From an uncultured Ruminococcus sp. (GTDB taxonomy: Bacteria > Bacillota > Clostridia > UBA1212), in the NCBI GenBank assembly GCA_902792515.1, contig CADAZX010000001.1, positions 72,441-136,440 on the forward strand: a DNA stretch of 64,000 bases, written 5' to 3'. The notes beneath the pieces were generated by a model. That model made no database searches, was not told where the DNA came from, and worked only from the letters and a program-made list of their open reading frames with translations. The position numbers were made by a program, and so were the translations under genes. The stretch's first letter is position 1; each line of letters opens with the position of its first letter. Shown here one piece after another: positions 26,043 through 56,704 of the stretch.

Positions 26043-28571
26043 TTAGAAATTGTTAGCCTGAGTCGTCCTCGAAATAATGTCGTCCTGGAGGGATCTGGAA
26101 AGCGTCGTGAACAGCGCGCTGTATCCCGCGACCCTTACCACGAGCGCTTTGTACTTCTCGGGGTGCTGCTGAGCGTCGAGCAGCGTCTCGCGGCTGACCA
26201 CGTTGAACTGCACGTGCATGCCCTTTCTGTTGAAGTACGTTCTCAGGTAGGTGATGAAGTCGTTGATGCCCTTCGGGCCCGAGAGCGCCGACGGGTGGAA
26301 CTTCTGGTTGTAGAGAGTTCCGTTGGAGGCGATCAGGTGGTCGATCTTCGCGACCGAGTTTGCCGCCGCCGTGGGTCCGAGCTTGTCCCTGCCCTGTGCG
26401 GGGCCGATGCCGTCCGCGATAGGAGCCTGCGAAAGTCTGCCGTCGGGAGTCGCGCACGACTGGGCGCCGAGCGGAACGTTCGCGGAGACCGGATAGAGGC
26501 CCGCCTGGAAGATGCCGCCGCGAGGATTCCTGAACGTCTCAAGCGGCTTTGTGTATGTGTACGCGACGTCTCTCGCGAAAAGGTCGATCTCGTCGATGTC
26601 GTTGCCGTACTTGGGAAGCGCCTCGATGTCGTCGAGCATCTTTTCGTAGAAATCGACACGCTCTTTGGGGAGCTGCTTGGATGCCGCCGCGCTCGCGTAT
26701 ACCGCCTTGATGACTTCGGGGGTGATCTCCCTGCCGTCCTTGGCGAGCTTAGCGCAGACCGTCTTCACGATGTGCTCCATATCGAGCGGCGTGAGCCCTT
26801 TTCCGAAGTTGTCCGCCATAGCCTGCTTGAAATCGGCCATCGTGTACTTTTTCTCCTCGAAAACGAGCTTTTTGATCGCGAACAGGCCGTCCGCGACGTT
26901 GGCGATACCGAAGCCTTGAGGGCCGGTGAAGTTGTAGATCGCTCCGCCCTCTTCCACGCACTTGCCGGATTCGAAGCACCCGTCTGTGAGGCAGGACTCG
27001 AACGGAAGCGGGCTTCTCTGAGCGTGGGCGTAATCTATCGCGTTGATTGCGTTTACCATCAGCGCGATGGAGGTTGTCATCTGCTTCTTGTAGGCGTTGT
27101 AGAGCTCGTCGAACGTAGTCATCTTGAGCACGTCGCCCGTCTCGACAGTTACAAGCTCGCCGTCCTCCCAGCCGTTCGTGAACGTGAGCTCGAGAGGTCT
27201 GAGCATGTTGAAGAACGCCGCGTCGTGCCAGCCGTCGGTCTTGCCCGGAACCTGGGGCTCCACGCAGCCGATAATGTTGTACTCGCGCGCCTCTTCAAGC
27301 GGAATTCCGCGGTTCATGAGGGCGGGAATGATGACCTCGTCGTTGTAGTAAGCCGGGAGGCCGATACCGGTTCTGGTGAGCTCGACCGCCTTCACAAGGA
27401 TCTCGTGGGGCGTTCCGTTCCAGATCCTGATGGAAAGAGAAGGCATCGGCAGTCCGGTGTGCATGGAAGCTTCGATGCACATCGCGGAAAGGTCGTTCGT
27501 GACGTCCTTGCCGTCCCTGTCCTGGCCGCTTACGATCAGGTTCTGGAAGAGGCTGTAGCCGGCGAATCCCTCCGCGGAAGCGGCGTCGCGGCACTTGTTG
27601 AGGTCGTTCAGCTTGATCCAGATGCAGTCGAGAAGCTCCTGCGCGGACTCTCTCGTGATCGTACCTGCGTCGAGGTCCTTTTTATAATAAGGATACATAT
27701 ACTGGTCGAATCTTCCGGGCGAGATCGAGTGGCCGCTCGACTCAAGCTGGAGGAGCTGCTGCACGAACCAGAAAGCCTGGCACGCCTCGTGGAACGACTT
27801 GGCCGGATTCTCGGGAACGTTGCGGCACACCTGCGCGATCTTAAGCAGGTCGGTGCGCCTCTCGCCGCTCGCGGACTGAGCCATTTTCTCAGCCAGATCA
27901 GCGTATCTGTTGGCATATCTGATGACCGCCTTGCAGCTTCTGATGACCGCCTCATAGAAGATCCTGCGCTTGCACGCGTCTGCCTTGCCTACGCACATCT
28001 CCGCCATTTCCTTTTCGGCTCTCGCGATGACGCCCTTGAGGCCCTCGCCGAGAACGGTCCAGTATGTGACCGTGATGTGGCCGATGCCGTTGTAGAAATA
28101 GTTGCCCGGCGTGAAAATGTTGTGGTTAATCGCCCTGAGAGCTCTCGGGTCCATAAACGCCGTCGCGAGCTCGCTTGTAGTCTTGTTCTTCCAGTACTTG
28201 TCCGCCTCCGCGATCCTGCGCTTGGCGTCTTCGCTGATATTGAACGGGTCCGCCTTTCTGTCGGCGACGGTGTCGAACTCCGCCTCGAGCCACTCGTACG
28301 AGAACTCCGGATAAGTCTGGCAGCCTCTCATTTTAATCGTGGTGCTGCCGACGATGAGTTCGTCGTCGCGGATGACGATCGGAATGTTGTCCAGAATGTG
28401 CTCGAACGCCCTCGATTTCCTCTCCACCTCGGGAAGGTTCTCGGTAGCTTTGTACGACTCTGTAATAAGTTCAGCCCTCGCCGGCTCAATCTCCGGTTTA
28501 GCATTATAAAAGGCGTCAAGGAGTCTGTCGATTCTGGCGGTCTTTTTGATTGGGCTCGTATCGAAATTCAT
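26043..28571 (-). CDS. Glycyl radical enzyme, probable B12-independent 1,2-propanediol dehydratase (PFL2/glycerol-dehydratase class)
   Basis: 842 aa. Glycine-radical motif RVAGYSALF near the C-terminus. Eliminase-type active-site loop GCVEP. N-terminal region (ELITESYKATE...AFEHIL...IRDDELIVGSTT) and the internal WFVQQLLQLESSGHSISPGRFDQYMYPYY block match remembered diol-dehydratase sequences. Confidence 0.7.
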   Translation of the reverse strand: MNFDTSPIKKTARIDRLLDAFYNAKPEIEPARAELITESYKATENLPEVERKSRAFEHILDNIPIVIRDDELIVGSTTIKMRGCQTYPEFSYEWLEAEFDTVADRKADPFNISEDAKRRIAEADKYWKNKTTSELATAFMDPRALRAINHNIFTPGNYFYNGIGHITVTYWTVLGEGLKGVIARAEKEMAEMCVGKADACKRRIFYEAVIRSCKAVIRYANRYADLAEKMAQSASGERRTDLLKIAQVCRNVPENPAKSFHEACQAFWFVQQLLQLESSGHSISPGRFDQYMYPYYKKDLDAGTITRESAQELLDCIWIKLNDLNKCRDAASAEGFAGYSLFQNLIVSGQDRDGKDVTNDLSAMCIEASMHTGLPMPSLSIRIWNGTPHEILVKAVELTRTGIGLPAYYNDEVIIPALMNRGIPLEEAREYNIIGCVEPQVPGKTDGWHDAAFFNMLRPLELTFTNGWEDGELVTVETGDVLKMTTFDELYNAYKKQMTTSIALMVNAINAIDYAHAQRSPLPFESCLTDGCFESGKCVEEGGAIYNFTGPQGFGIANVADGLFAIKKLVFEEKKYTMADFKQAMADNFGKGLTPLDMEHIVKTVCAKLAKDGREITPEVIKAVYASAAASKQLPKERVDFYEKMLDDIEALPKYGNDIDEIDLFARDVAYTYTKPLETFRNPRGGIFQAGLYPVSANVPLGAQSCATPDGRLSQAPIADGIGPAQGRDKLGPTAAANSVAKIDHLIASNGTLYNQKFHPSALSGPKGINDFITYLRTYFNRKGMHVQFNVVSRETLLDAQQHPEKYKALVVRVAGYSALFTTLSRSLQDDIISRTTQANNF

Positions 28572-28796
28572 GTCATTCCTCCGTACTTTTCCTTCAAGGG
28601 CGCGTTTTCCGCCCCCTGTCTCAGCTATATATCGTTTTAAAAACGCTTTTCATCTTTAGAAAGCTCTAATTTAACGGCAAACTGCGATAACAAGTATATT
28701 GTAACCCGTTTGCCGCTTGCGCAAAGAGCATTTAATCGGCGTTTCCTTCGGAAAATACCGCAAGGCATAGTAAGGCCTATTACGGAAACTACATAT

Positions 28797-28825
28797 AGTA
28801 TACCACCCGTTTCCCGCACCGTCAA
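28797..28825 (-). promoter_or_regulatory. Sigma70 promoter of the microcompartment operon (TTGACG-N17-TATACT) with an upstream A-tract UP-like region
   Basis: Minus-strand read: gcggTTGACGgtgcgggaaacgggtggTATACTatatg, about 215 nt upstream of the glycyl-radical-enzyme ATG. An A-rich (aacaacaaaaaa)n region lies at 28835-28900. Confidence 0.6.
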
Positions 28826-28998
28826 CCGCTTTTTGAACTTTTTTGTTGTTTTTGAGAAATAATTATAGAATTTTTTGTTGTTTTTTGTTGTTTTCACACA
28901 TTGTTATGACTGATTCCACAACAGCATCCCACATCGCAGTCAAATAATGACGTATTTCAACCGAAACAAGAATCAATTTGCGGGCACTACAGATTGTA

Positions 28999-29032
28999 AA
29001 AACAAAAACCGCCCCGGGGGGCGGCTGAGTTT
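28999..29032 (-). terminator. Rho-independent terminator after the 29106..29894 gene
   Basis: Minus-strand read: CCGCCCCCCGGGGCGG hairpin followed by tttttgttttt. Confidence 0.7.
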
Positions 29033-49023: not shown

Positions 49024-49590
49024 TTACGCGCCTGTTCCGGTCAGCTCGATGTCCGCGGCGTAGGGCTTCATTCCCTCGATGCAGATCTCCGCGAGCGTCG
49101 CGACGTCCATCCCGAGCATCCCGCACCCGCGCTGAATCAGCTCCCTGTCGCACTTCGCGGCAAACTTTTTGTCCTTGAACTTCTTCATAAAGCTCTTCAC
49201 CTCGAGGTCGGAAATACCGTTCGGCCGCATTCTCGCGCACGCCTGAATGATTCCCGTCAGCTCGTCGACGGCGAAAAGGCTCTTTTCCATATCGGTAACG
49301 GGCTCCACGTCGCTGCAGATCCCGTACCCGTGGCTCATAATAGCCCGGACGTCGTCCGCGTCGACGCCCTCCGCCAGAAGCTCCTTTTCGGTGTGTTTGA
49401 GGTGCTCGTCCGGATATTTTTCGTAGTCGTAGTCGTGAAGGTAGCCGACCGCCATCCAGTGTTCGCGGTCCTCTCCAAAATGGTCCGCCATCGCGCCCAT
49501 CGCGTACATAACGTTTTTCGCGTGGATCACGAGGTGATGTTCCGTCACCTCGCGGTCGTTAAGCTCCTTCGCGCGTTCAAGTGTAAGCAT
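49024..49590 (-). CDS. HD-domain phosphohydrolase
   Basis: Start reassigned to MLTLERAKEL (RBS GAGAGGGGAAG). HD motif H...HD in (VIHAKNVMY...YLHDYDYEKY). Confidence 0.75.
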   Translation of the reverse strand: MLTLERAKELNDREVTEHHLVIHAKNVMYAMGAMADHFGEDREHWMAVGYLHDYDYEKYPDEHLKHTEKELLAEGVDADDVRAIMSHGYGICSDVEPVTDMEKSLFAVDELTGIIQACARMRPNGISDLEVKSFMKKFKDKKFAAKCDRELIQRGCGMLGMDVATLAEICIEGMKPYAADIELTGTGA

Positions 49591-49626
49591 CACACACTTC
49601 CCCTCTCTAATTACAAAAATCAAAAG

Positions 49627-50112
49627 TTATCTCTTGCGGCCGCCCGCAGGCCCGCCGCTTAAAACAGAAGTCAGAAGCCCCTCGCACCCCTCAGAAATGT
49701 CGTCCCACGCCTCGTCAAAATTCCCGGTGTACCACGGGTCGGCGACCTCCTGCCCTTTCCGGCCTGTAAAATCGAGCAGCAGAACAATCTTGCCCTCCGG
49801 GTCGCCGCCCGCGATTGCGGTCGCGTTCCTGACGTTGGCGCGGTCCATGCAGACGATGAGGTCGTAATAATCGTAGTCCTGTCTTGTCATCCTCCGTGCG
49901 TGATGACCCGCACAGCCAATTCCGTTTTCGGCAAGCTTGCGCCTCGCGGGGGGATAGACCGGATTCCCGATTTCCTCATAACTTGTCGCCGCCGACGCAA
50001 TCTCGAACCGCGCCTCACACCGGCGGCGTTTTACAAGATCCTTCATCAAAAACTCCGCCATCGGGCTTCTGCAGATGTTGCCGTGGCAGACGAACAGTAT
50101 TTTTAATGACAT
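49627..50112 (-). CDS. Low-molecular-weight protein-tyrosine phosphatase
   Basis: The CHGNICRSP P-loop (CX5R) is at the N-terminus and a DPWY loop lies further on. Its first 10 codons are duplicated at 51798-51827. Confidence 0.9.
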   Translation of the reverse strand: MSLKILFVCHGNICRSPMAEFLMKDLVKRRRCEARFEIASAATSYEEIGNPVYPPARRKLAENGIGCAGHHARRMTRQDYDYYDLIVCMDRANVRNATAIAGGDPEGKIVLLLDFTGRKGQEVADPWYTGNFDEAWDDISEGCEGLLTSVLSGGPAGGRKR

Positions 50113-50135
50113 TTTTCTCTCTCTTTATTCTTTTA

Positions 50136-51467
50136 TCATTTACTGCGCAAATAGTCTTTTAAGAGAAACACAAGATAATGAGGGAATGATCGTATATTAC
50201 CTTCCACACCGATATTACCATCAATCAATTTGATGCCAAAGTGAATATCCGGATATGAATCACTCTTAATCAATGTACGGAGCGATTTACTATTTCCGTT
50301 TCTGGCCTTAACCTCTACCGGAATAAGGGTTTCAGTATTACGAACAAAGAAATCTTCTTCTAAAGTAGAGTTTTCTTTTGAATAATAATACAGGTCAAAC
50401 CCTGCCTTAACCAGCATATCTCCTACTATATTTTCATATAGTCCCCCTCGATAGGTTCCTATGTTTTTGCGGCTTCTCAGATCCTCCTGAGTTTCATCGT
50501 CAAGCATTGCAATCAGCAAACCGGTATCTGCCATATAAATCTTGTATTTTGTTTCATCATAGTTCCCCTTAAGGGGAAGTTCAGGGTAATTCAAGCAATA
50601 ACACACATTGATGATCCCGGCATTTGACAGCCACTCTATTGCCCCTCTGTAGTCCTTAAACCTGGCGCCTGAAGCAACTTTACTGATCTGGAATTTTTTG
50701 TTTTCTTTTGCTAACTGAACCGGTATATGTCTGAATACATTAAGAATTCGGCTTTGGTCCAATCCTTCCGCATATTTTGTAATATCCTCCTCATAGTCGG
50801 ACAATAGTTGCCTTTGAAGCTCCAATGTATTTGAAAACATACCGTTTCTGACATATTCCAAAACTACTGCCGGCATTCCTCCAACTATTACATAATCCAA
50901 AAAAGCTTCCGCCATAACCTGTACCAATGAAGCCTGTAGCGGAGTTCCGTCCTGCATTGCTTTAAAAAGATCTGCCTTCAATCCGTCATCATAACCTTTG
51001 GCCCATAAAAACTCTTCAAAATCCAACGATCTCAAAGTGTAATCGGTTTTATATCCAACACTATTGCTCTCAATCTTCTTGTAATAAACTCCAAGCAACG
51101 AGCCGCTGCAAATCACATCATAACGCCTGTCAATGCAGTATGCCTTTAGTGTGGTTGCAATGTCCGGATGATCTTGTATTTCATCAAAAAAAATCAGAGT
51201 TTTTCCCTCAATAAATTTCTTAGAAGGATCTATCCGGCTGATTGCTTTATTGACTGTCTCCACAGTGTATCCATCTTCGGTGATTACGCAATATTTCTTC
51301 TCCAATGCAAAATTGATATATATGATGTTGTCATAAAAACCTTTAGCGAAACGCATTATACTTTCGGTCTTCCCAACCTGTCTGGCACCTTTAATGATCA
51401 ATGGCTTTCGGTTCGGGTTTTCATGCCACTCACTTAAGATTTTATCCACCTTACGCTTTAAGTACAT
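50136..51467 (-). CDS. AAA+ ATPase with a DUF4143-type C-terminal domain (AAA_14/DUF4143 family)
   Basis: Start reassigned to MYLKRKVDKI (RBS GAGGAGG). Walker A GARQVGKTE and Walker B IFFDEIQ. Low GC. Confidence 0.75.
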   Translation of the reverse strand: MYLKRKVDKILSEWHENPNRKPLIIKGARQVGKTESIMRFAKGFYDNIIYINFALEKKYCVITEDGYTVETVNKAISRIDPSKKFIEGKTLIFFDEIQDHPDIATTLKAYCIDRRYDVICSGSLLGVYYKKIESNSVGYKTDYTLRSLDFEEFLWAKGYDDGLKADLFKAMQDGTPLQASLVQVMAEAFLDYVIVGGMPAVVLEYVRNGMFSNTLELQRQLLSDYEEDITKYAEGLDQSRILNVFRHIPVQLAKENKKFQISKVASGARFKDYRGAIEWLSNAGIINVCYCLNYPELPLKGNYDETKYKIYMADTGLLIAMLDDETQEDLRSRKNIGTYRGGLYENIVGDMLVKAGFDLYYYSKENSTLEEDFFVRNTETLIPVEVKARNGNSKSLRTLIKSDSYPDIHFGIKLIDGNIGVEGNIRSFPHYLVFLLKDYLRSK

Positions 51468-51896
51468 AATAGGACCTCCTCTCAATCTAAATAGTATTAT
51501 AGAGCAACAGCGATAATTTTTCAACTATTTTATGAGCGAGTTAGTCGCGGGTTTTGCATTTTTATGAGCGTGTTTTTATGTTCCCACACCTTTTTATGTC
51601 AAAAAAGGCCTCGCCGCATCACAGCATCACAGCAAAGTCCTAAAAACCGCTTGTATAAAATTTAATGTATATAAAAAATGTTGTATTGGAGTCCGTATTG
51701 ATTGGTTACTTAAGGGTGCAATTAAGGTGCAAACTCACGATCAAAACAGCTCTCAAAGCTTGATATTTAAGGCTTTTCACCGCTCGGTTGGTAGAGTGCC
51801 GTGGCAGACGAACAGTATCTTAATCATATCGTTTTCATGTTTTATCGGGGTTTGGATGCCTTTCTATACCCGGATTCCTGCATTATTAATTATCGT

Positions 51897-53195
51897 TTAT
51901 CTTAATACTGCCCATTTCCCGGTTTTATTTCCACCACGACGTTCAATCACCTTTTTCCTCTTTAATGCTGCAAGTATTTTTCTTATATATCCGTCAGAGT
52001 ATCCACTTGCAGCAACCATTTCCTTTATCGTGATACCGGAATTATGACTTATATAATCGATAACTCGCCGCTCCGCATCATTAATACTGATTTTATTATC
52101 AGGCTCAGTTACACTATTGTCATTTTTCTCATAATTAAACGGAATAGTTACATTAACAAAGTTCTCCGTAATATCAAAAGCCTGCTTTCCATAATTACTA
52201 ATTATAAGAGGAACGCCATGACCTGTTTGTTCCACGTATCCCAATTGACCGAATATCTTTTGAAGTTTGGAATTAACCGGCTTACTTATTCCTTTGAAAA
52301 ACTCTTCCTTATTTAAATCTACAGGTAATCCTCCCGTAGAAATGATTTCTATTCTATCTGAAAAAACGTAAACCGCCGGTGGATTCCCTTTTATCCATTT
52401 CGTATGAATACATGCATTTTGCCAAGCTTCTTTAAAACTGGCCATGTCAAAAAGTCTTTCTTCTATTCGTCTGTGATTGCCCATCGTGACCATAGTTTCA
52501 TTAACGGATTCCATGTAATCCAACACTCTATCCATAGCGGTAACGAGACATGTTCCTCCGTATTCGTTTCTCTTTATTAGAACTGTCTTATCTTTTCCTG
52601 CAAAAGTAACCACTTTGATTGAGATGTCATTTTCGTCAGCAAGCAAAAAAGCCATTAGATTATACTTCCCATCGCTGTTTTTCAGCCCGGTATTATCTTC
52701 GAAAGTTGTTTGGTCGACTGTCAGCCCCGCCGTTACAAAAGCAATTTTGAGTTTATTAAAAGTAAGCGTCTGAACAGGCGCCGGAACCAAAGTCAAAACA
52801 TCTGATGATGCTTGTCTGTCTATTAACTCCTTTAATGCTGTCGGACTCAATTCTCTATCTTCATCCGCAGATCGCATATAATAGCGTCCATATGCCGAGT
52901 ATGGTTTTTCAGAGCCACGTACTTCAATCTTAATTACGTTTTTATCATCTATCAATCCATGTTCTATAATTGGTATAATCTGCGGTTTAATGAAATTTGC
53001 TATTGCCTGGGATATTTCTCTAAGCGTTCTATCACCCATTTGTTGACCAACTACGTCCCCATTGTCCTTAACCCCAAAATACAGAATTCCATATCCATTC
53101 TTGTTGAGCATAGAAGCCAATGAAGTGATTCCTTCCCGGAGTTCTCCCGTTGTCCTCTTAAACTCTATTTTTTCAGTCTCCACTCCTATATTCAC
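51897..53195 (-). CDS. AlbA_2 / Schlafen-like divergent AAA domain protein with a C-terminal wHTH (putative ATP-dependent DNA-binding regulator)
   Basis: Probable GTG start (RBS AGGAGG) giving MNIGVETEKIEFKRTTGEL. The N-terminal AlbA_2-type motif (ESE.IEFK) and the C-terminal GYIRKILAALKRKKVIERRG HTH-like segment are present. Low GC. Confidence 0.65.
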   Translation of the reverse strand: MNIGVETEKIEFKRTTGELREGITSLASMLNKNGYGILYFGVKDNGDVVGQQMGDRTLREISQAIANFIKPQIIPIIEHGLIDDKNVIKIEVRGSEKPYSAYGRYYMRSADEDRELSPTALKELIDRQASSDVLTLVPAPVQTLTFNKLKIAFVTAGLTVDQTTFEDNTGLKNSDGKYNLMAFLLADENDISIKVVTFAGKDKTVLIKRNEYGGTCLVTAMDRVLDYMESVNETMVTMGNHRRIEERLFDMASFKEAWQNACIHTKWIKGNPPAVYVFSDRIEIISTGGLPVDLNKEEFFKGISKPVNSKLQKIFGQLGYVEQTGHGVPLIISNYGKQAFDITENFVNVTIPFNYEKNDNSVTEPDNKISINDAERRVIDYISHNSGITIKEMVAASGYSDGYIRKILAALKRKKVIERRGGNKTGKWAVLR

Positions 53196-53512
53196 TGCTC
53201 CACGCCTCCTAAACATCAATTGTTGGATTTGAACAGTTTTTCGCTTGCTTGGTCAGCTAACTGCTCTCCGCTATTTTGAATTATACTCCATTTGCTTTCT
53301 TTTTGCTACTCTTTTTTGCCACTTTATTTGCTACTTTATTTGCCACTTTAATTACTACCAACCCGGGTTTCTTTTCAACATCTGCTGCCGTTGCCATAAA
53401 AGAAACTAACCAAATAAGTACCGTTTCTTAAATACCCGGCTTTATATCGCCGCAGGTATAAAGAAACAGCAGCCGGAACGAACAGAACCCTCATCATAGA
53501 ATCAAATTCCTA

Positions 53513-53953
53513 TCAATCAAGCTTCGCGAGCTCCTCCGGATCGTCCTTCGGCTGGCAGAGGTGGATTATTTTCGCGTCCGGGTACTCTTTTCTCAAACGT
53601 TTGTCGGCGTTTTTCGCGAAGCCGCTGGCGCTGTAAAGAACGAACGTCAGCTTTTTCCCGGAAAAATCCGTGTCCCTGAGGACCGTGTTAACGGGGCTCG
53701 CGAGACGCGCGTTCCAGACAGGTGCGCCGACCCAGACCTCGTCGTAGCCGCTTACGTCGCTGTCGTAGCCCTTGAGCTTCGGTTTCTGTCCGATTCCCGC
53801 CGAGAAACCGCCCTTCAGCAACTGCGGAAGCAGCTTTTTGCTGAGCGTGAACTCCGATTCGACTTTGCGGAGCTCGAAACCTTTTTCGGCGAGTTTTGCG
53901 GCGACCGCGTCACCGTTTCCGCTGAAACTGTAGTAAACGAACAACTTTGCCAT
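53513..53953 (-). CDS. Flavodoxin-family protein
   Basis: MAKLFVYYSFSGNGDAVAAKLAEKG N-terminal FMN-binding loop, ~146 aa. Confidence 0.75.
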   Translation of the reverse strand: MAKLFVYYSFSGNGDAVAAKLAEKGFELRKVESEFTLSKKLLPQLLKGGFSAGIGQKPKLKGYDSDVSGYDEVWVGAPVWNARLASPVNTVLRDTDFSGKKLTFVLYSASGFAKNADKRLRKEYPDAKIIHLCQPKDDPEELAKLD

Positions 53954-54149
53954 GGTATATTGCCCCTTTCCTCAGGCTGAAATCATTTTTGAACCCTTTC
54001 CGTTCATATCTAATTGTATAAGTTTTCCGGTGTTTGTCAATATCCCACGCGACGTTCACGCGACGTTCACGGCCTAAAAAGCTGTTCCAAAAAGCGCTCG
54101 AATGTGATATCATTGGCTCATCCATCAAAAACCGGGAGGAGACCTTCAG

Positions 54150-55493
54150 ATGAGTATGCAGACCGGGGCGGAGACCTTGAAAGTTAAAGTTGATTTTTCC
54201 GAAAAGAAAGGGCCCGTGAAGCCCCTGCACGGTGTGGGACAGCCGCCGTTTTACGGCCTCGACTTCTCGATGTTCCGCTACCTGACCGATGCGGGGATTC
54301 CGTTTTCGCGTCTTCACGACGTTGGCGGGTGGTTCGGCGGGTCGATGTTCGTCGACATTCCGAACCTGTTCCCGGATTTCGGTAAGGACCCGGCCGACCC
54401 GGCATCGTACGATTTCACGTTCACGGACATGCTCATTTCCGCGCTCACGGAAGCGTCCGTCGAGCCCGTTTTCAGGCTTGGCGTCTCGATCGAAAACTTC
54501 GTCGAGATCAAGGCGTACCGCGTGTTCCCGCCGGCAGACAATCTAAAATGGGCGAAGATCTGCGAGGGCGTCATCCGCCACTACACCGAAGGCTGGGCAG
54601 ACGGCTTTTACCACAAAATCCGCTACTGGGAGATCTGGAACGAGCCCGACAACGAGGAGGACCCCCTCAAAAATCCGATGTGGCGCGGCACGATGGAGCA
54701 GTATTTCGAGCTTTACGGCACCGCTTCCCGCTACCTCAAAAACCGCTTTCCGCACCTGAAAATAGGCGGATACGCGTCCTGCGGCTTCTACGCGATAGCC
54801 GGTATCGAGACCGACCCGAACGCGAAGGCAACCGCGCGTGAAGAGTATTTTGTCGAGTACTTCGAAAAGTTCCTGGAGTACGTCAAGACAAACGGCTGCC
54901 CGCTCGACTTTTTCTCGTGGCACAGCTACGCCTCGATCGAAAACACCGCGATCTTCGCGCGGTACGCGCGCAAAATGCTTGACGGATACGGCTTCACGGA
55001 GACCGAGACGATGTGCAACGAGTGGAACTGCGAGGTCTTCCACCGCGGGACCGCCCACCACGCCGCCGTGACCGCCGCGATGATGCTCTCGTTCCAGCAC
55101 CTGCCGGTCGATTCGGCAATGTTCTACGACGCGCAGCTCAGCCCGAGCGTTTACGGCTCGCTTTTCAACCCGTTGACTCGCGAACCCCTTCCCTCTTACG
55201 AGGCGTTCCTCGCGTTCAACGAGCTGTACAAGCGCGGAACTGAGACCGGACTCACTTTTGAAGGCGCCGCCGCGGGAATTTACGGAGCGGCATCATTCGA
55301 CGAAGAAAAAGGCGGCGCGATAGTAATCGCGAACGTCTCGCCGTCGGAGAAGCGCCTTGAGTACTGTTCCGGCGGGAGAAACATTGTTTCGTACCGCCTC
55401 CTGACAGAAGAAGGCCTCCGTGCGGAAGCCCCATGCTCAGGCCTTCCCGCCACGCTCCCCGGTAACTCGATTTTGACGGTCATAACGGAATGA
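54150..55493 (+). CDS. Clan GH-A glycoside hydrolase, GH39-like (beta-xylosidase family)
   Basis: The YWEIWNEPDN motif carries the acid/base Glu. It has a (beta/alpha)8 organisation and no signal peptide. Confidence 0.55.
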   Translation: MSMQTGAETLKVKVDFSEKKGPVKPLHGVGQPPFYGLDFSMFRYLTDAGIPFSRLHDVGGWFGGSMFVDIPNLFPDFGKDPADPASYDFTFTDMLISALTEASVEPVFRLGVSIENFVEIKAYRVFPPADNLKWAKICEGVIRHYTEGWADGFYHKIRYWEIWNEPDNEEDPLKNPMWRGTMEQYFELYGTASRYLKNRFPHLKIGGYASCGFYAIAGIETDPNAKATAREEYFVEYFEKFLEYVKTNGCPLDFFSWHSYASIENTAIFARYARKMLDGYGFTETETMCNEWNCEVFHRGTAHHAAVTAAMMLSFQHLPVDSAMFYDAQLSPSVYGSLFNPLTREPLPSYEAFLAFNELYKRGTETGLTFEGAAAGIYGAASFDEEKGGAIVIANVSPSEKRLEYCSGGRNIVSYRLLTEEGLRAEAPCSGLPATLPGNSILTVITE

Positions 55494-55509: not shown

Positions 55510-55557
55510 GCGCGCCTGCCCCGGCCGGGGCAGGCGCGCCGTTTTTACCTAAACAAA
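55510..55557. terminator. Bidirectional terminator between the convergent genes 54150..55493 and 55566..56630
   Basis: GCGCGCCTGCCCCGGCCGGGGCAGGCGCGC palindrome followed by cgtttttacc. Confidence 0.75.
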
Positions 55558-55565
55558 GGCAAAAT

Positions 55566-56630
55566 TTATTCAAGAACAATTTCTTTTCCCGCAGCAGATG
55601 AGTCGTACATCGCCTGCATCATTTTCGCGGTGATTATCACGGTATCGATATGCGACGGCTGCTTTTCGCCCGTTCTGACGGCGCGCACAAACGAGTCGAT
55701 CTCCTCCTGGAACATGTCGTTCGGTTTGAACTCCGGTTTGTAGCTCACGAGCTTTCCGCCGCCGGTGGTGTAAAACGTGAAATCCGAGCCGTAGTTCAAG
55801 CGGATGCCGCCCTTCGTGCCGAGGAAGTCGATAAAGGACTCGCCGACGCCGATGTTCTGTGCCCAGGCGCCGTTAAACGTTACGGTCGGGCCGGACGTAC
55901 GCACGAAGCCCGTCACAAAATCGTCCACGTCGTACGTTCCGTTCAAGTCTTTTGTGTTCTCCGCCCACATGCCCTCGTATACGTAGTTTTTCATATCGAC
56001 TCCGAGCTTGCAGAACGCCTTCGCGGAAACGGTCTCCGGCCGCGGGTCGCCCGTGCAGAACATCATGATGTCAAGATAGTGAACGCCCCAGTCGATCAGG
56101 ACGCCGCCGCCCGATATCGCGTTCGTCGTAAACGCGCCGCCAAGGCCGGGAATCGAGCGCTGCTGGCGAAAGCTCACGTAGACGTGGTAGACCTCGCCAA
56201 GGTCGCCGTTCGAGATCATTTCCCGGATCTTGCGGACCGCGGAGCTGAAACGGTTCACGACGCCGATGTTCAGAGTCTTTCCGTATTTGTGCTGCGCCTC
56301 CTGCATTTTGAGCGCGTCCGCGTACGTCCTCGCGGCGGGCTTTTCGCACAAAACGTGCTTCCCCGCGGCGAGCGCGTCGCAGGTGATCGTCATGTGCATT
56401 CTGTTCGGGGTGCATACGGACACAGCGTCGATTTCGGGGTCGTTTATCACGTCGTGATAGTCGGTGCAGGCGGTGCCGCAGCCGTACTTTTCGACCGCCC
56501 CGAACGCTTTTTCGGGAATGATGTCGCAAAAATACTTGATCCGAACGTCCGGATTTTTGAGATACGCGGGAATGTGCGCGCTGTTGGCGATCGTGCCGCA
56601 TCCGATGATTCCGATTACCGTTTTTTCCAT
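55566..56630 (-). CDS. Gfo/Idh/MocA-family NAD(P)-dependent oxidoreductase
   Basis: Start reassigned to MEKTVIGIIGCGTIANSAH (RBS AAAGAGGGA). Rossmann GxGxxA and the EKP motif (LCEKPAA). Confidence 0.85.
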   Translation of the reverse strand: MEKTVIGIIGCGTIANSAHIPAYLKNPDVRIKYFCDIIPEKAFGAVEKYGCGTACTDYHDVINDPEIDAVSVCTPNRMHMTITCDALAAGKHVLCEKPAARTYADALKMQEAQHKYGKTLNIGVVNRFSSAVRKIREMISNGDLGEVYHVYVSFRQQRSIPGLGGAFTTNAISGGGVLIDWGVHYLDIMMFCTGDPRPETVSAKAFCKLGVDMKNYVYEGMWAENTKDLNGTYDVDDFVTGFVRTSGPTVTFNGAWAQNIGVGESFIDFLGTKGGIRLNYGSDFTFYTTGGGKLVSYKPEFKPNDMFQEEIDSFVRAVRTGEKQPSHIDTVIITAKMMQAMYDSSAAGKEIVLE

Positions 56631-56704
56631 TTTCCGTCCCTCTTTCAAACTTTTAGCAAAAATTACCGTATTTTCAAGCCTTTTGCCTAAAACCGCGTGC
56701 GTTT

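What the first reader, a model, noticed from the sequence alone, without database searches (positions are those of the whole stretch)
50078..53510. AT-rich island inserted at the 5' end of the phosphatase gene, with duplication of the gene start; cargo is an AAA+ (DUF4143) ATPase and an AlbA_2/Schlafen-like ATPase
GC content drops from ~60% to ~38% between 50113 and ~53510. The first 30 nt of the phosphatase gene (atgtcattaaaaatactgttcgtctgccacggc, minus strand, 50112-50080) are repeated at 51827-51798 (atgattaagatactgttcgtctgccacggc). There they form a truncated ORF (MIKILFVCHGTLPTER*), so the DUF4143 AAA+ ATPase gene (50136..51467) is exactly bracketed by a 21-nt perfect / 30-nt imperfect direct repeat. 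This is the signature of site-specific insertion or cassette exchange. Beyond the second repeat lies an AlbA_2 (Schlafen-like) divergent-AAA protein with a C-terminal wHTH. The island ends in 13-bp tandem repeats (ctttatttgcyac, 53290-53350). Both cargo genes belong to families recurrently found in defence islands with no assigned mechanism. The pair could be an uncharacterised anti-phage or abortive-infection module, or regulatory cargo of a degraded integrative element with no integrase left.
Basis: partly seen in the sequence, partly recalled or inferred. Interest (0 to 1): 0.7.

Follow-up and report, generated by a model that had tools for sequence, protein, structure and literature searches.

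The report
Integrase-less defence-gene cassettes re-heading a phosphatase gene
Two foreign single-gene cassettes, both candidate anti-phage genes, sit at the start of a rumen bacterium's phosphatase gene, a spot that mobile elements with their own integrase use in related species; each cassette brought a replacement gene start, a tidy but fairly ordinary case of a decayed mobile-element hot spot.

Summary
GC falls from about 0.58 to 0.38 over 50113-53512. A 22-nt perfect repeat (50079-50100 and 51797-51818) brackets the DUF4143 gene, and the domain calls are correct.

The island is two independent modules, not one unit.
- Module D (1718 bp) carries an AAA_14+DUF4143 ATPase-nuclease, PADLOC candidate PDC-S01. 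It is absent from two same-species contigs as a clean indel at the repeat.
- Module A carries an AlbA_2/HATPase_c_4/wHTH gene with its own 12-bp repeat promoter array. It is 97-100% identical in a second species whose flanks are only 58-93% identical, so it was transferred recently.

A related contig keeps the ancestral layout: flavodoxin, a DUF6440 gene, then the native phosphatase start MVKV.

Each module ends in its own AT-rich surrogate phosphatase start.

In at least nine related species a tyrosine integrase (Tn916-type, full length in L041) lies directly upstream of the same phosphatase motif. In five of them it sits on a horizontally shared element. The gene start is therefore a real attachment site.

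Best reading: integrase-less remnants (CIME-like) accreted at this site. The two genes do not form an obligate pair. Defence function is untested. This is a new member of a known kind, of moderate interest.

The parts
49627..50112 (-). LMW phosphotyrosine phosphatase gene (161 aa). Its body is GC-rich host DNA. Its first roughly 11 codons (MSLKILFVCHG) are supplied by module D.
   Evidence: Pfam LMWPc E 7e-35. The same phosphatase body carries alternative heads in the population: MSLK, M(KND)MIK, MVKV and MKIMYQSVADVIK.
50079..50100 (-). Core repeat copy 1 (attR-like). It encodes (I)LFVCHG of the CX5R P-loop, within the functional gene.
   Evidence: The alignment with L004 shows this segment matched twice.
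50101..50135 (-). Right end of module D: the surrogate AT-rich gene start (ATGTCATTAAAA, 50112-50101) plus a 23-nt spacer with a purine-rich RBS after the DUF4143 stop.
   Evidence: Sequence. The same layout follows the 92%-identical DUF4143 gene in L094/L095.
50136..51467 (-). Module D cargo: AAA_14 + DUF4143 protein (443 aa), a STAND/AAA+-like ATPase with a C-terminal PD-(D/E)xK nuclease; PADLOC PDC-S01.
51468..51682 (-). Upstream region conserved with the DUF4143 gene. It holds a promoter-like site (TTGAAA-17-TATAAT, 51524-51496) and two CGCTCATAAAA motifs (51528-51542 and 51560-51574).
   Evidence: Promoter scan 11/12. Repeat family D8. The region is conserved with the gene in at least six unrelated contexts.
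51683..51796 (-). Left arm of module D (about 115 nt). It starts CTCTACCAACCGAGCGG directly after the core. It was found only here and in L091.
   Evidence: No match in viral contigs, plasmids or phages.
51777..51827 (-). Displaced earlier gene start, now a 16-codon stub (MIKILFVCHGTLPTER*). Core repeat copy 2 (attL-like) is 51797-51818. This head is itself AT-rich and was supplied by module A.
   Evidence: In L004, L090, L010 and L104 this same head is the functional start of the phosphatase gene.
51828..51896 (-). Spacer between the AlbA_2 stop and the module A surrogate head.
   Evidence: It lies inside the block that is 97-100% identical to species 2.
51897..53195 (-). Module A cargo: SLFN_AlbA_2 + HATPase_c_4 + winged-helix protein (432 aa from GTG 53195; 440 aa from TTG 53219).
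   Evidence: Pfam. The best solved-structure match of the AF2 model is the uncharacterised DIP2311 (3lmm, E 1e-16), followed by Schlafen N-domains and MecI/BlaI winged helices. No meaningful PADLOC hit.
53264..53358 (-). AlbA_2 promoter region: four to five tandem 12-nt units (GTRGCAAAWARR on the gene strand, 53298-53358) abutting a TATAAT box (53285-53280).
   Evidence: TRF period 12. The array is conserved upstream of 78-80%-identical AlbA_2 genes in L105 and L106 (Anaerovibrio sp. RM50), and survives as a remnant in L094. Copy number differs between strains.
53359..53512 (-). Left flank of module A, up to the flavodoxin stop. It contains a possible older phosphatase-start stub, ATGATGAGGGTTCTGTTCGT (53497-53478, ORF MMRVLFV...).
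   Evidence: It is part of the block shared at 97-100% with species 2, and differs from the native sequence of L091 from the base after the flavodoxin stop. The stub reading is tentative: no phosphatase with an MMRVLFVCHG head was found.
53513..53953 (-). Flavodoxin gene, the GC-rich host flank on the other side.
   Evidence: Pfam Flavodoxin_4. Identity to species 2 is 0.73-0.95 here, against 0.97-1.0 inside the island.

Best explanation
The island is two integrase-less, single-gene mobile-element remnants. They are comparable to cis-mobilisable elements (CIMEs). They accreted in tandem at an attachment site lying inside the first ~11 codons of the LMW phosphotyrosine-phosphatase gene, the stretch that encodes ILFVCHG(N) of the catalytic P-loop.

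How the site works. In related Oscillospirales, elements carrying a tyrosine integrase (Tn916-type where the full-length gene was read) integrate at this stretch. Each carries its own copy of the gene start, so the phosphatase stays intact after integration. Every integration displaces the previous start upstream as a stub.

Inferred order of events in this lineage.
1. The ancestor was flavodoxin, a DUF6440 gene, then the phosphatase with native head MVKV.
2. Module D entered by a single crossover of a circular form at the core. It consists of a left arm, a promoter, the DUF4143/PDC-S01 ATPase-nuclease gene and the surrogate head MSLK. This produced the 22-nt direct repeat.
3. Later, module A replaced the DUF6440 segment. 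It consists of a 12-mer promoter array, the AlbA_2-HATPase_c_4-wHTH gene and the surrogate head MIK. It came from, or was shared with, another species, and its right-hand junction lies in the same core.
4. The with-D and without-D forms now coexist in the species.

Inferred function. Each cargo gene has its own promoter. The phosphatase, 23 nt downstream of DUF4143, is probably read through from the D promoter.
- D is most likely an ATP-dependent, STAND-like sensor coupled to a PD-(D/E)xK nuclease that acts in phage defence.
- A is most likely a self-regulating nucleic-acid-binding protein. Its winged helix would bind the 12-mer array. Its role is defence-related or regulatory.

What is shown: the anatomy, the presence/absence polymorphism, the inter-species transfer, and integrase elements at the same site in other species.
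What is inferred: which recombinase acted here, the order of events, co-transcription, and any defence activity.
For: (1) The D indel is clean. L004 aligns to window 57584-51799 and to 50107-48804, with 26 nt matched twice. L090 behaves the same way.

(2) L091, whose flanks are about 95% identical, has flavodoxin, a DUF6440 ORF, then the native GC-rich head ATGGTCAAAGTACTGTTCGTCTGCCACGGCA. That head is joined at the same nucleotide to D's left arm. D and the phosphatase were then deleted.

(3) Intact phosphatases with the native MVKV head exist in this species cluster, alongside the MSLK, MIK and a fourth head.

(4) Module A is 97-100% identical to species 2 (L010 Mageeibacillus sp. UBA1212, and L104). 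Identity in the flavodoxin gene is 0.73-0.95 and in the phosphatase gene 0.58-0.93. The switch points lie at the flavodoxin stop and at the core.

(5) A 92%-identical D gene in a low-GC Clostridiales genome (L094/L095) is also followed by a phosphatase head. That head is truncated after the same CACGGCA. A further GNICRS fragment and the 12-mer array follow it.

(6) A tyrosine integrase lies 180-290 nt upstream of the phosphatase head, on the same strand, in L061, L033, L042, L027, L041, L071, L032, L038 and L047.
- In the first five species the integrase, arm and head are 89-97% identical. The phosphatase body is only 70-81% identical, and no alignment extends beyond the phosphatase body.
- In the three of those five loci with 8 kb of upstream sequence (L042, L027, L041) GC jumps at the motif from 0.42-0.43 to 0.63-0.66; in L061 and L033 the rise is smaller and falls in the next 500-nt bin.
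- The L041 copy is a 434-aa Tn916-type integrase (PF02920 + PF00589). A VapE-like gene and an XRE gene lie further upstream.
- The L061 copy is truncated, which suggests decay in progress.

(7) The island holds only the two cargo ORFs. No homolog of that integrase occurs anywhere in the window.

(8) D matches PDC-S01 with intact ATPase and nuclease motifs. PDC-S01 is the most frequent single defence-candidate locus in rumen MAGs and is still unvalidated (PMC13356809, PMC12988326).
Against: - No integrase lies in or near the island, so no recombinase can be assigned for this genome.
- The left ends (attL) of the integrase-bearing elements were outside the fetched DNA. D's left arm could therefore not be compared with them.
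- D's and A's phosphatase-proximal ends look nothing like the 250-nt integrase-arm region of those elements.
- The D +/- polymorphism is equally explained by RecA recombination between the two 22-nt cores. It is also explained by an incoming A block resolving at either core.
- D's left arm is about 95% identical between the window and L091, similar to the flanks. D is therefore old here, not recently mobile.
- None of the other species-representative loci fetched with the phosphatase query shows a duplicated head within about 8 kb.
- No circular form of D was seen.
- Defence activity is untested for both genes.
Confidence: 0.6

Rival explanations
1. No site-specific recombinase was involved. 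The phosphatase P-loop coding stretch is so conserved at the nucleotide level that host homologous recombination uses it as a short anchor. Foreign blocks that already lie next to a phosphatase gene in a donor are then imported. Import is by Campbell-type single crossover of circularised DNA, which gives the duplication. Alternatively it is by double crossover between the flavodoxin 3' end and the core, which gives block replacement. The D +/- polymorphism is loss by recombination between the repeats, or alternative resolution at either core copy.
For: - Block A replaces the DUF6440 segment rather than inserting. Its boundaries fall in the two short stretches conserved between the species: the flavodoxin stop region and a roughly 30-nt core.
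- D's left arm shows lineage-level divergence, consistent with vertical inheritance plus later loss.
- No integrase lies in the window.
- Variable defence islets flanked by core genes are commonly exchanged this way (my own knowledge of published hot-spot surveys).
Against: - Identity of 22-30 nt is marginal for RecA-dependent recombination (my own knowledge of minimal homology lengths).
- Three different foreign modules each carry their own phosphatase head: window D, window A and L094 D.
- The stub in L094 breaks at exactly the same nucleotide as in the window, although a different sequence follows it.
- Integrase-bearing elements demonstrably use this site in at least nine related species.
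Confidence: 0.27
2. The DUF4143 gene is itself a selfish mobile gene. Its PD-(D/E)xK nuclease would cut a conserved target, here the phosphatase P-loop coding sequence. The gene would then be copied in by repair, like a free-standing homing endonuclease. Its abundance would reflect mobility rather than defence.
For: - The gene with only about 110-215 nt of upstream DNA recurs at 78-92% nucleotide identity in at least six unrelated contexts, with sharp boundaries at the stop codon.
- Up to four paralogs lie in one 11-kb stretch (L096).
- PDC-S01 is extremely abundant (PMC13356809, PMC12988326).
Against: - Homing does not create a target duplication with a surrogate head.
- The other contexts show no phosphatase fragments, except L094.
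- The AlbA_2 module behaves the same way at the same site without any such nuclease.
- Sharp boundaries are expected anyway at this level of divergence.
Confidence: 0.04
3. The two genes form one co-functioning two-gene defence or abortive-infection system acquired as a unit.
For: They are adjacent, on the same strand and both AT-rich. Both belong to families seen in defence islands.
Against: - A occurs without D in L004, L090, L010, L104, L105 and L106.
- D occurs without A in L091, L094, L102, L096-L101, L111-L123.
- Each has its own conserved promoter region.
- They have different histories in this lineage: A is a recent inter-species transfer, D is older.
Confidence: 0.04

Closest known systems
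Cis-mobilisable elements (CIMEs) and tandem accretion at ICE/IME attachment sites (ICESt1/ICESt3-type elements of Streptococcus thermophilus; reviewed in PMC5704250)
   Same: The segments lack integration and transfer genes but remain bounded by att-derived repeats. They lie in tandem at one attachment site that includes the end of a target gene. Related elements with integrases use the same site in other genomes.
   Different: - The site is the 5' end of a protein gene, not a 3' end or a tRNA gene.
- Each module is a single gene of about 1.7 kb.
- No cognate integrase has been identified in this genome.
- Trans-mobilisation is not shown.
Integrative elements that target the 5' end of a gene and supply a new start: SXT/R391 in prfC, and dusA-specific genomic islands (PMC8409611, PMC8386438)
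   Same: Integration occurs inside the first codons of a conserved gene. The reading frame is restored by an element-borne surrogate N-terminus and expression signals.
   Different: The target gene is different (LMW-PTP). The hosts are Oscillospirales. The integrase is Tn916-type where the full-length gene was read, rather than SXT or DusA-type. The window copies have lost the integrase.
PADLOC phage-defence candidate PDC-S01 (AAA_14 + DUF4143; COG1373)
   Same: Full-length HMM match. ATPase plus PD-(D/E)xK architecture with intact motifs. Typical rumen-MAG occurrence.
   Different: Nothing distinctive in the protein. The family itself has no experimentally shown activity (PMC12988326).
COG2865-type AlbA_2/Schlafen-like + HATPase_c_4 + wHTH proteins (structure 3lmm, DIP2311)
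   Same: The same three-part architecture. The best structural match is 3lmm.
   Different: No function is known for the family. Characterised prokaryotic Schlafen nucleases (CRISPR-associated Cash, SLFN-pAgo) have other fusion partners.
Integrons
   Same: Serial capture of single-gene units at one site, all in the same orientation.
   Different: There is no adjacent integrase. No attC sites were identified. Each unit has its own promoter. The recombination site lies inside an ORF.

Membership tests
CIME-like decayed integrative element | Bounded by attL/attR-type direct repeats derived from the target site | tested here: met
   A 22-nt perfect repeat plus imperfect heads brackets module D. 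Module A ends in the same core. Its left-hand stub is only tentative.
CIME-like decayed integrative element | No integrase, excisionase or transfer genes inside the element | tested here: met
   The island holds only the two cargo ORFs. No homolog of the site's integrase occurs in the whole window.
CIME-like decayed integrative element | Related integrase-bearing elements use the same attachment site | tested here: met
   Tyrosine integrases directly upstream of the phosphatase head in at least nine species. In five of them the integrase lies on a shared element that is 89-97% identical, against 70-81% for the phosphatase body. All of these are in other species, not in this genome.
CIME-like decayed integrative element | Excision or integration in trans by a cognate integrase | not testable with these tools
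   Needs an experiment, or read-level detection of circular junctions.
5'-end-targeting integrative elements (SXT/prfC, dusA islands) | Integration within the first codons, with an element-borne surrogate N-terminus that keeps the gene intact | tested here: met
   Heads MSLK (D), MIK (A) and native MVKV all sit on the same phosphatase body. The surrogate head codons (ATGTCATTAAAA, ATGATTAAG) use AT-rich codons where the native head reads ATGGTCAAAGTA.
PDC-S01 (PADLOC) | Full-length match to the family HMM | tested here: met
   PDLC04786, E 1.9e-153, residues 1-439 of 443.
PDC-S01 (PADLOC) | P-loop ATPase motifs and PD-(D/E)xK nuclease motif intact | tested here: met
   Invariant G32-K33-T34, D95-E96, D372 and K387 in a 30-sequence alignment; E385 is nearly invariant. 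DUF4143 is listed in the PD-(D/E)xK superfamily (PMC3424549).
PDC-S01 (PADLOC) | Protects against phage | not testable with these tools
   The family itself is unvalidated (PMC12988326).
AlbA_2-HATPase_c_4-wHTH (COG2865-type) proteins | Three-domain architecture | tested here: met
   Pfam PF04326 + PF13749 + MarR_2/HTH_24. Foldseek top hit 3lmm, E 1e-16. The N-terminal domain of the model is low-confidence.
Known anti-phage defence system (for the AlbA_2 gene) | Match to a defence-system model | tested here: not met
   Only a 19-bit partial PADLOC hit.
Two-gene defence system | The two genes co-occur across genomes | tested here: not met
   Each is found without the other in most contexts examined.
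Integron | Adjacent intI-type integrase with an attI site | tested here: not met
   No recombinase lies in or next to the island.
Prophage or plasmid fragment | DNA similarity to known phages or plasmids | tested here: not met
   No phage hit. One 65%-identity plasmid hit, to a paralogous ATPase gene only. No viral-contig hit to the left arm.

The most novel reading that the evidence does not exclude
The start of the LMW-PTP gene works as a reusable docking site. Integrase-less single-gene cassettes, each with its own promoter and a surrogate gene head, would be captured, stacked and swapped there. The work would be done in trans by Tn916-type integrases of elements resident elsewhere in the community. 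This would be a functional analogue of an integron whose recombination site lies inside an open reading frame, distributing defence candidates such as PDC-S01 among rumen Clostridia.
Probability: 0.12. Interest if true: 0.65.

Novelty: new member of a known kind. Interest (0 to 1): 0.36.

Why it matters
- It gives a worked, population-level example of how single defence-candidate genes are stacked and exchanged at one chromosomal site in uncultured rumen Clostridia.
- It identifies the 5' end of the LMW-PTP gene as an attachment site for tyrosine-integrase elements in Oscillospirales. I found no description of this site in the literature searched.
- It shows that PDC-S01, the most abundant unvalidated defence candidate in the rumen, travels as a compact unit of promoter plus gene.
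- It offers a natural pair of near-isogenic strains, with and without the gene, for testing whether PDC-S01 protects against phage.
- It does not reveal a new mechanism.

Tried and rejected
- **tRNA-derived att site.** D's left arm begins with a D-arm-like GGTTGGTAGAG. ARAGORN found no tRNA in the window, and Rfam found nothing in 49500-54200 at E<=1. Rejected.
- **Phage or plasmid origin.** Nothing useful came back. A viral-contig scan for the core gave three chance matches that are not phosphatase genes.
- **Third, older stub.** I looked for a phosphatase with an MMRVLFVCHG head to validate the putative stub at 53497-53478. None appeared among 30 cluster members. Species 2 has one variant headed MKVLFVCHG instead. 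The stub stays tentative.
- **Same re-heading signature at another DUF4143 indel (L096 versus L097).** That case is an intergenic block replacement with no duplicated gene start.
- **Duplicated phosphatase heads in the other species-representative loci.** None was found within about 8 kb.
- **Second att copy of the integrase elements.** None was found in the fetched DNA.
- **Solved-structure sequence homologs of either protein.** None.
- **Integron reading.** Rejected, because there is no adjacent integrase.

Full report
**1. Observation**

The AT-rich tract is real and unique in the window. In 300-nt windows GC is 0.35-0.42 from about 50000 to 53450. It is 0.54-0.63 on both sides.

All four genes lie on the minus strand:

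| Coordinates | Product |
|---|---|
| 53513-53953 | Flavodoxin_4 protein |
| 51897-53195 | SLFN_AlbA_2 + HATPase_c_4 + winged-helix protein |
| 50136-51467 | AAA_14 + DUF4143 protein |
| 49627-50112 | LMW phosphotyrosine phosphatase (LMWPc) |

The repeat TGCCGTGGCAGACGAACAGTAT is perfect over 22 nt at 50079-50100 and 51797-51818. It continues imperfectly to the two ATGs. A 19-mer from it allowing up to 3 mismatches occurs twice, against 0.03 expected. The upstream copy heads the stub ORF MIKILFVCHGTLPTER*.

The tandem repeat near 53300 has a 12-nt period and spans 53298-53358. The AT-rich block continues about 150 nt beyond it, to the flavodoxin stop.

**2. Module D is a discrete 1718-bp unit that is present or absent in the species**

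Exact-protein look-ups returned contigs of the same species.
- L003, L005 and L002 are 99.8-99.99% identical to the window and carry the same arrangement.
- L004 aligns to window 57584-51799 (98.8%) and to 50107-48804 (97.5%). 26 nt of L004 are matched twice. That is a clean indel bounded by the repeat.
- L090 likewise lacks D, and its core is identical to the window's over the 19 nt searched (CTGTTCGTCTGCCACGGCA). L093 carries D.

In the contigs without D, the stub's head (ATGATTAAG...) is the working start of the phosphatase gene.

**3. The ancestral layout and the order of events**

L091 has flanks about 95% identical to the window. Its layout is:
- flavodoxin;
- a 72-aa DUF6440 ORF;
- a GC-rich native phosphatase start, ATGGTCAAAGTACTGTTCGTCTGCCACGGCA;
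- then, at the same nucleotide as in the window, D's left arm (CTCTACCAACCGAGCGG...);
- then a deletion that removed the DUF4143 gene and the whole phosphatase.

So D's junction also exists on a background that never had the AlbA_2 block.

D's left arm is 94.9% identical between L091 and the window. That is similar to the flanks (95.9% and 88.2%). D is therefore old in this lineage.

The members of the phosphatase's 90%-identity cluster carry four different heads on one body:

| Head | Source |
|---|---|
| MSLKILFVCHG | D-borne |
| M(KND)MIKILFVCHG | A-borne |
| MVKVLFVCHG | native, intact gene |
| MKIMYQSVADVIKILFVCHG | unexamined fourth form |

**4. Module A was transferred between species recently**

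The best genome-collection relative is L010 (Mageeibacillus sp. UBA1212). Its proteins compare with the window's as follows:

| Protein | Amino-acid identity to the window |
|---|---|
| Phosphatase | 80% |
| Flavodoxin | 87% |
| GH39 | 68% |
| AlbA_2 (same slot) | 99.5% |

L104 is a second contig of that species.

A sliding identity profile shows a sharp pattern.
- Identity is 0.73-0.95 across the flavodoxin gene.
- It is 0.97-1.0 from about 53510 through the core.
- It drops to 0.58-0.80 immediately downstream of the core, and stays at or below 0.93 through the phosphatase coding region.

Block A replaces the DUF6440 segment seen in L091. It differs from L091 from the base after the flavodoxin stop.

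Its head codons (ATGATTAAG) use AT-rich codons and are identical in both species, whereas the native head seen in L091 (ATGGTCAAAGTA) and carried by the window-species proteins P0379 and P0387 differs. So A also brought its own surrogate head.

**5. Both cargo genes are independent, compact units**

D plus about 110-215 nt of upstream DNA (window 51682 to 50136) recurs at 78-92% nucleotide identity in at least six unrelated contexts:
- L094/L095, a low-GC Clostridiales genome;
- L102/L103;
- L096-L101, which carry up to four DUF4143 paralogs per fetched locus;
- L111, next to a large serine recombinase and a MobA fragment;
- L112;
- L117-L123.

The conserved upstream DNA holds a strong promoter-like site (51524-51496) and two CGCTCATAAAA motifs.

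The AlbA_2 ORF plus its 12-mer array (53347 to 51900) recurs at 78-80% identity in L105 and in L106 (Anaerovibrio sp. RM50).

The array of four to five GTRGCAAAWARR units abuts a TATAAT box. Its copy number varies between strains. I read it as an operator or promoter array for the protein's own winged helix. That reading is inference.

Because each gene occurs without the other, they are not an obligate pair.

**6. L094 links the pieces**

Downstream of its 92%-identical D gene, L094 has, in order:
- the same spacer as the window;
- a phosphatase head, ATGATAAAAGTACTGTTTGTCTGTCACGGCA, truncated after the same CACGGCA but followed by a different sequence;
- about 130 nt later, a second phosphatase fragment (GNICRS);
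- the 12-mer array, 84% identical to window 53347-53264, without an AlbA_2 gene.

This is a graveyard of phosphatase-start scars. It shows that modules of this kind travel with phosphatase heads.

**7. The phosphatase start is a genuine attachment site**

Among the 61 species-representative loci with at least 1.5 kb upstream of the motif, several had AT-shifted DNA upstream of the phosphatase.

A tyrosine integrase lies 180-290 nt upstream of the LFVCHG motif, on the same strand, in L061, L033, L042, L027, L041, L071, L032, L038 and L047. Partial copies sit at contig ends in L052 and L028.

In L061, L033, L042, L027 and L041, five different species, two results stand out.
- The integrase, the 250-nt arm and the head are 89-97% identical. 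The phosphatase body is 70-81% identical, and no alignment extends beyond the phosphatase body.
- In L042, L027 and L041, which have 8 kb of upstream sequence, GC jumps from 0.42-0.43 to 0.63-0.66 at the motif; in L061 and L033 the rise is smaller and falls in the next 500-nt bin.

The L041 gene encodes a 434-aa Tn916-type integrase (PF02920 + PF00589). A VapE-like gene and an XRE regulator lie further upstream. The L061 copy is truncated to 260 aa.

Each element has paired short direct repeats just after the integrase stop, for example TTTACCAAY twice. They look like arm-type sites.

The window has no homolog of this integrase.

Integration into a gene's 5' end with a surrogate start is known for SXT/R391 in prfC and for dusA islands (PMC8386438, PMC8409611). 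Integrase-less remnants bounded by att sites, and their tandem accretion, are the CIME concept (PMC5704250).

**8. What the proteins are**

*D.* It matches PADLOC PDC-S01 over its full length. The Walker A and B motifs and D372 and K387 are invariant, and E385 is nearly so. DUF4143 is listed in the PD-(D/E)xK superfamily (PMC3424549).

The AF2 model has pLDDT 79 and pTM 0.83. Its closest solved structures are the archaeal Walker ATPases 2qen and 2fna, followed by NLR, CED-4 and Avs STAND proteins. I therefore describe it as a STAND/AAA+-like ATPase coupled to a nuclease.

PDC-S01 is the most frequent single candidate locus in rumen MAGs. It is the fourth most common across prokaryotes. It is not experimentally validated (PMC13356809, PMC12988326).

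*A.* It has no PADLOC match. Its model has pLDDT 70, with a weak N-terminal domain. The best match is the uncharacterised DIP2311 (3lmm), followed by Schlafen N-domains and MecI/BlaI winged helices.

Neither protein has a sequence homolog among solved structures.

**9. Mechanism and rivals**

The duplication with a foreign head requires a single-crossover (Campbell-type) integration of a circular form that carries a phosphatase-head copy.

I favour an origin as tyrosine-integrase elements that later lost their integrase (probability about 0.6). Four things support this: the site is demonstrably used by such elements; three independent foreign modules carry heads; decay is visible in L061; and L094's stub breaks at the identical nucleotide.

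The main rival is RecA recombination on the 22-30-nt conserved core and the flavodoxin 3' end (about 0.27). It explains the block-A replacement and the D +/- polymorphism equally well. It cannot be excluded without the experiments listed under next steps.

Self-mobility of the DUF4143 nuclease, and a two-gene system, are both unlikely.

**10. Verdict**

It is a new example of a known kind: decayed integrative elements carrying defence candidates, at a 5'-end attachment site that I did not find described in the literature searched. It is not a new mechanism.

Noticed in passing
L091 6692-7040: In this related lineage a deletion runs from the -35 box of the DUF4143 promoter to just past the phosphatase stop. 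It removed both genes, so the phosphatase is dispensable there.
   Followed up: partly
L096 3351-11332 versus L097: Up to four AAA_14+DUF4143 paralogs (three in L097), a DUF234 gene and acetyltransferases lie in one same-strand stretch of about 11 kb. Between strains, a 2.5-kb block (a 397-aa DUF4143 gene plus a 252-aa ORF) is swapped for 246 bp, with no duplicated gene start.
   Followed up: partly
L111 816-5332: A 92%-identical (amino-acid) DUF4143 gene lies just downstream of a 541-aa large serine recombinase (Resolvase + Recombinase + Zn_ribbon + DUF4368) and a MobA/MobL fragment. A Macro-domain gene follows. This is a different mobile context for the same cargo.
   Followed up: partly
P0381, P0384, P0385, P0245 (phosphatase cluster of the window species): A fourth head variant, MKIMYQSVADVIKILFVCHG, sits on the same phosphatase body. 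It diverges from the module A head a few codons upstream of the start, which implies yet another upstream block at this locus.
   Followed up: no
window 53298-53358; L004 4230-4280; L007 820-880: The copy number of the 12-nt unit upstream of the AlbA_2 gene differs between strains: five units in the window, L007 and L010, four in L004.
   Followed up: partly
window 54046-54071: An 11-nt perfect tandem repeat (CACGCGACGTT, 2.4 copies) lies just upstream of the strong promoter-like site at 54040-54013 that precedes the flavodoxin gene. In L007 the same stretch holds only a single CGTCGCGTG, so the repeat is shorter there.
   Followed up: no
window 55510-55539: A 30-nt perfect palindrome lies between the convergent GH39 gene (54150-55493, +) and the GFO/IDH/MocA gene (55566-56648, -). 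It is probably a bidirectional terminator.
   Followed up: no
window 28001-29000: A milder GC dip (0.48, against about 0.57 around it). It is the only other compositional departure in the window.
   Followed up: no
L090 3108-5912 versus window 50103-47275: The right flank (phosphatase to HTH gene) is only 93.4% identical to the window, while the left flank is 98.5%. This suggests a recombination breakpoint at or near the phosphatase core in that strain.
   Followed up: no
P0371, P0373 (species-2 phosphatase cluster): Two 140-aa gene calls start at MAEF, directly after the P-loop. They may mark further contigs in which the phosphatase head is disrupted or replaced.
   Followed up: no
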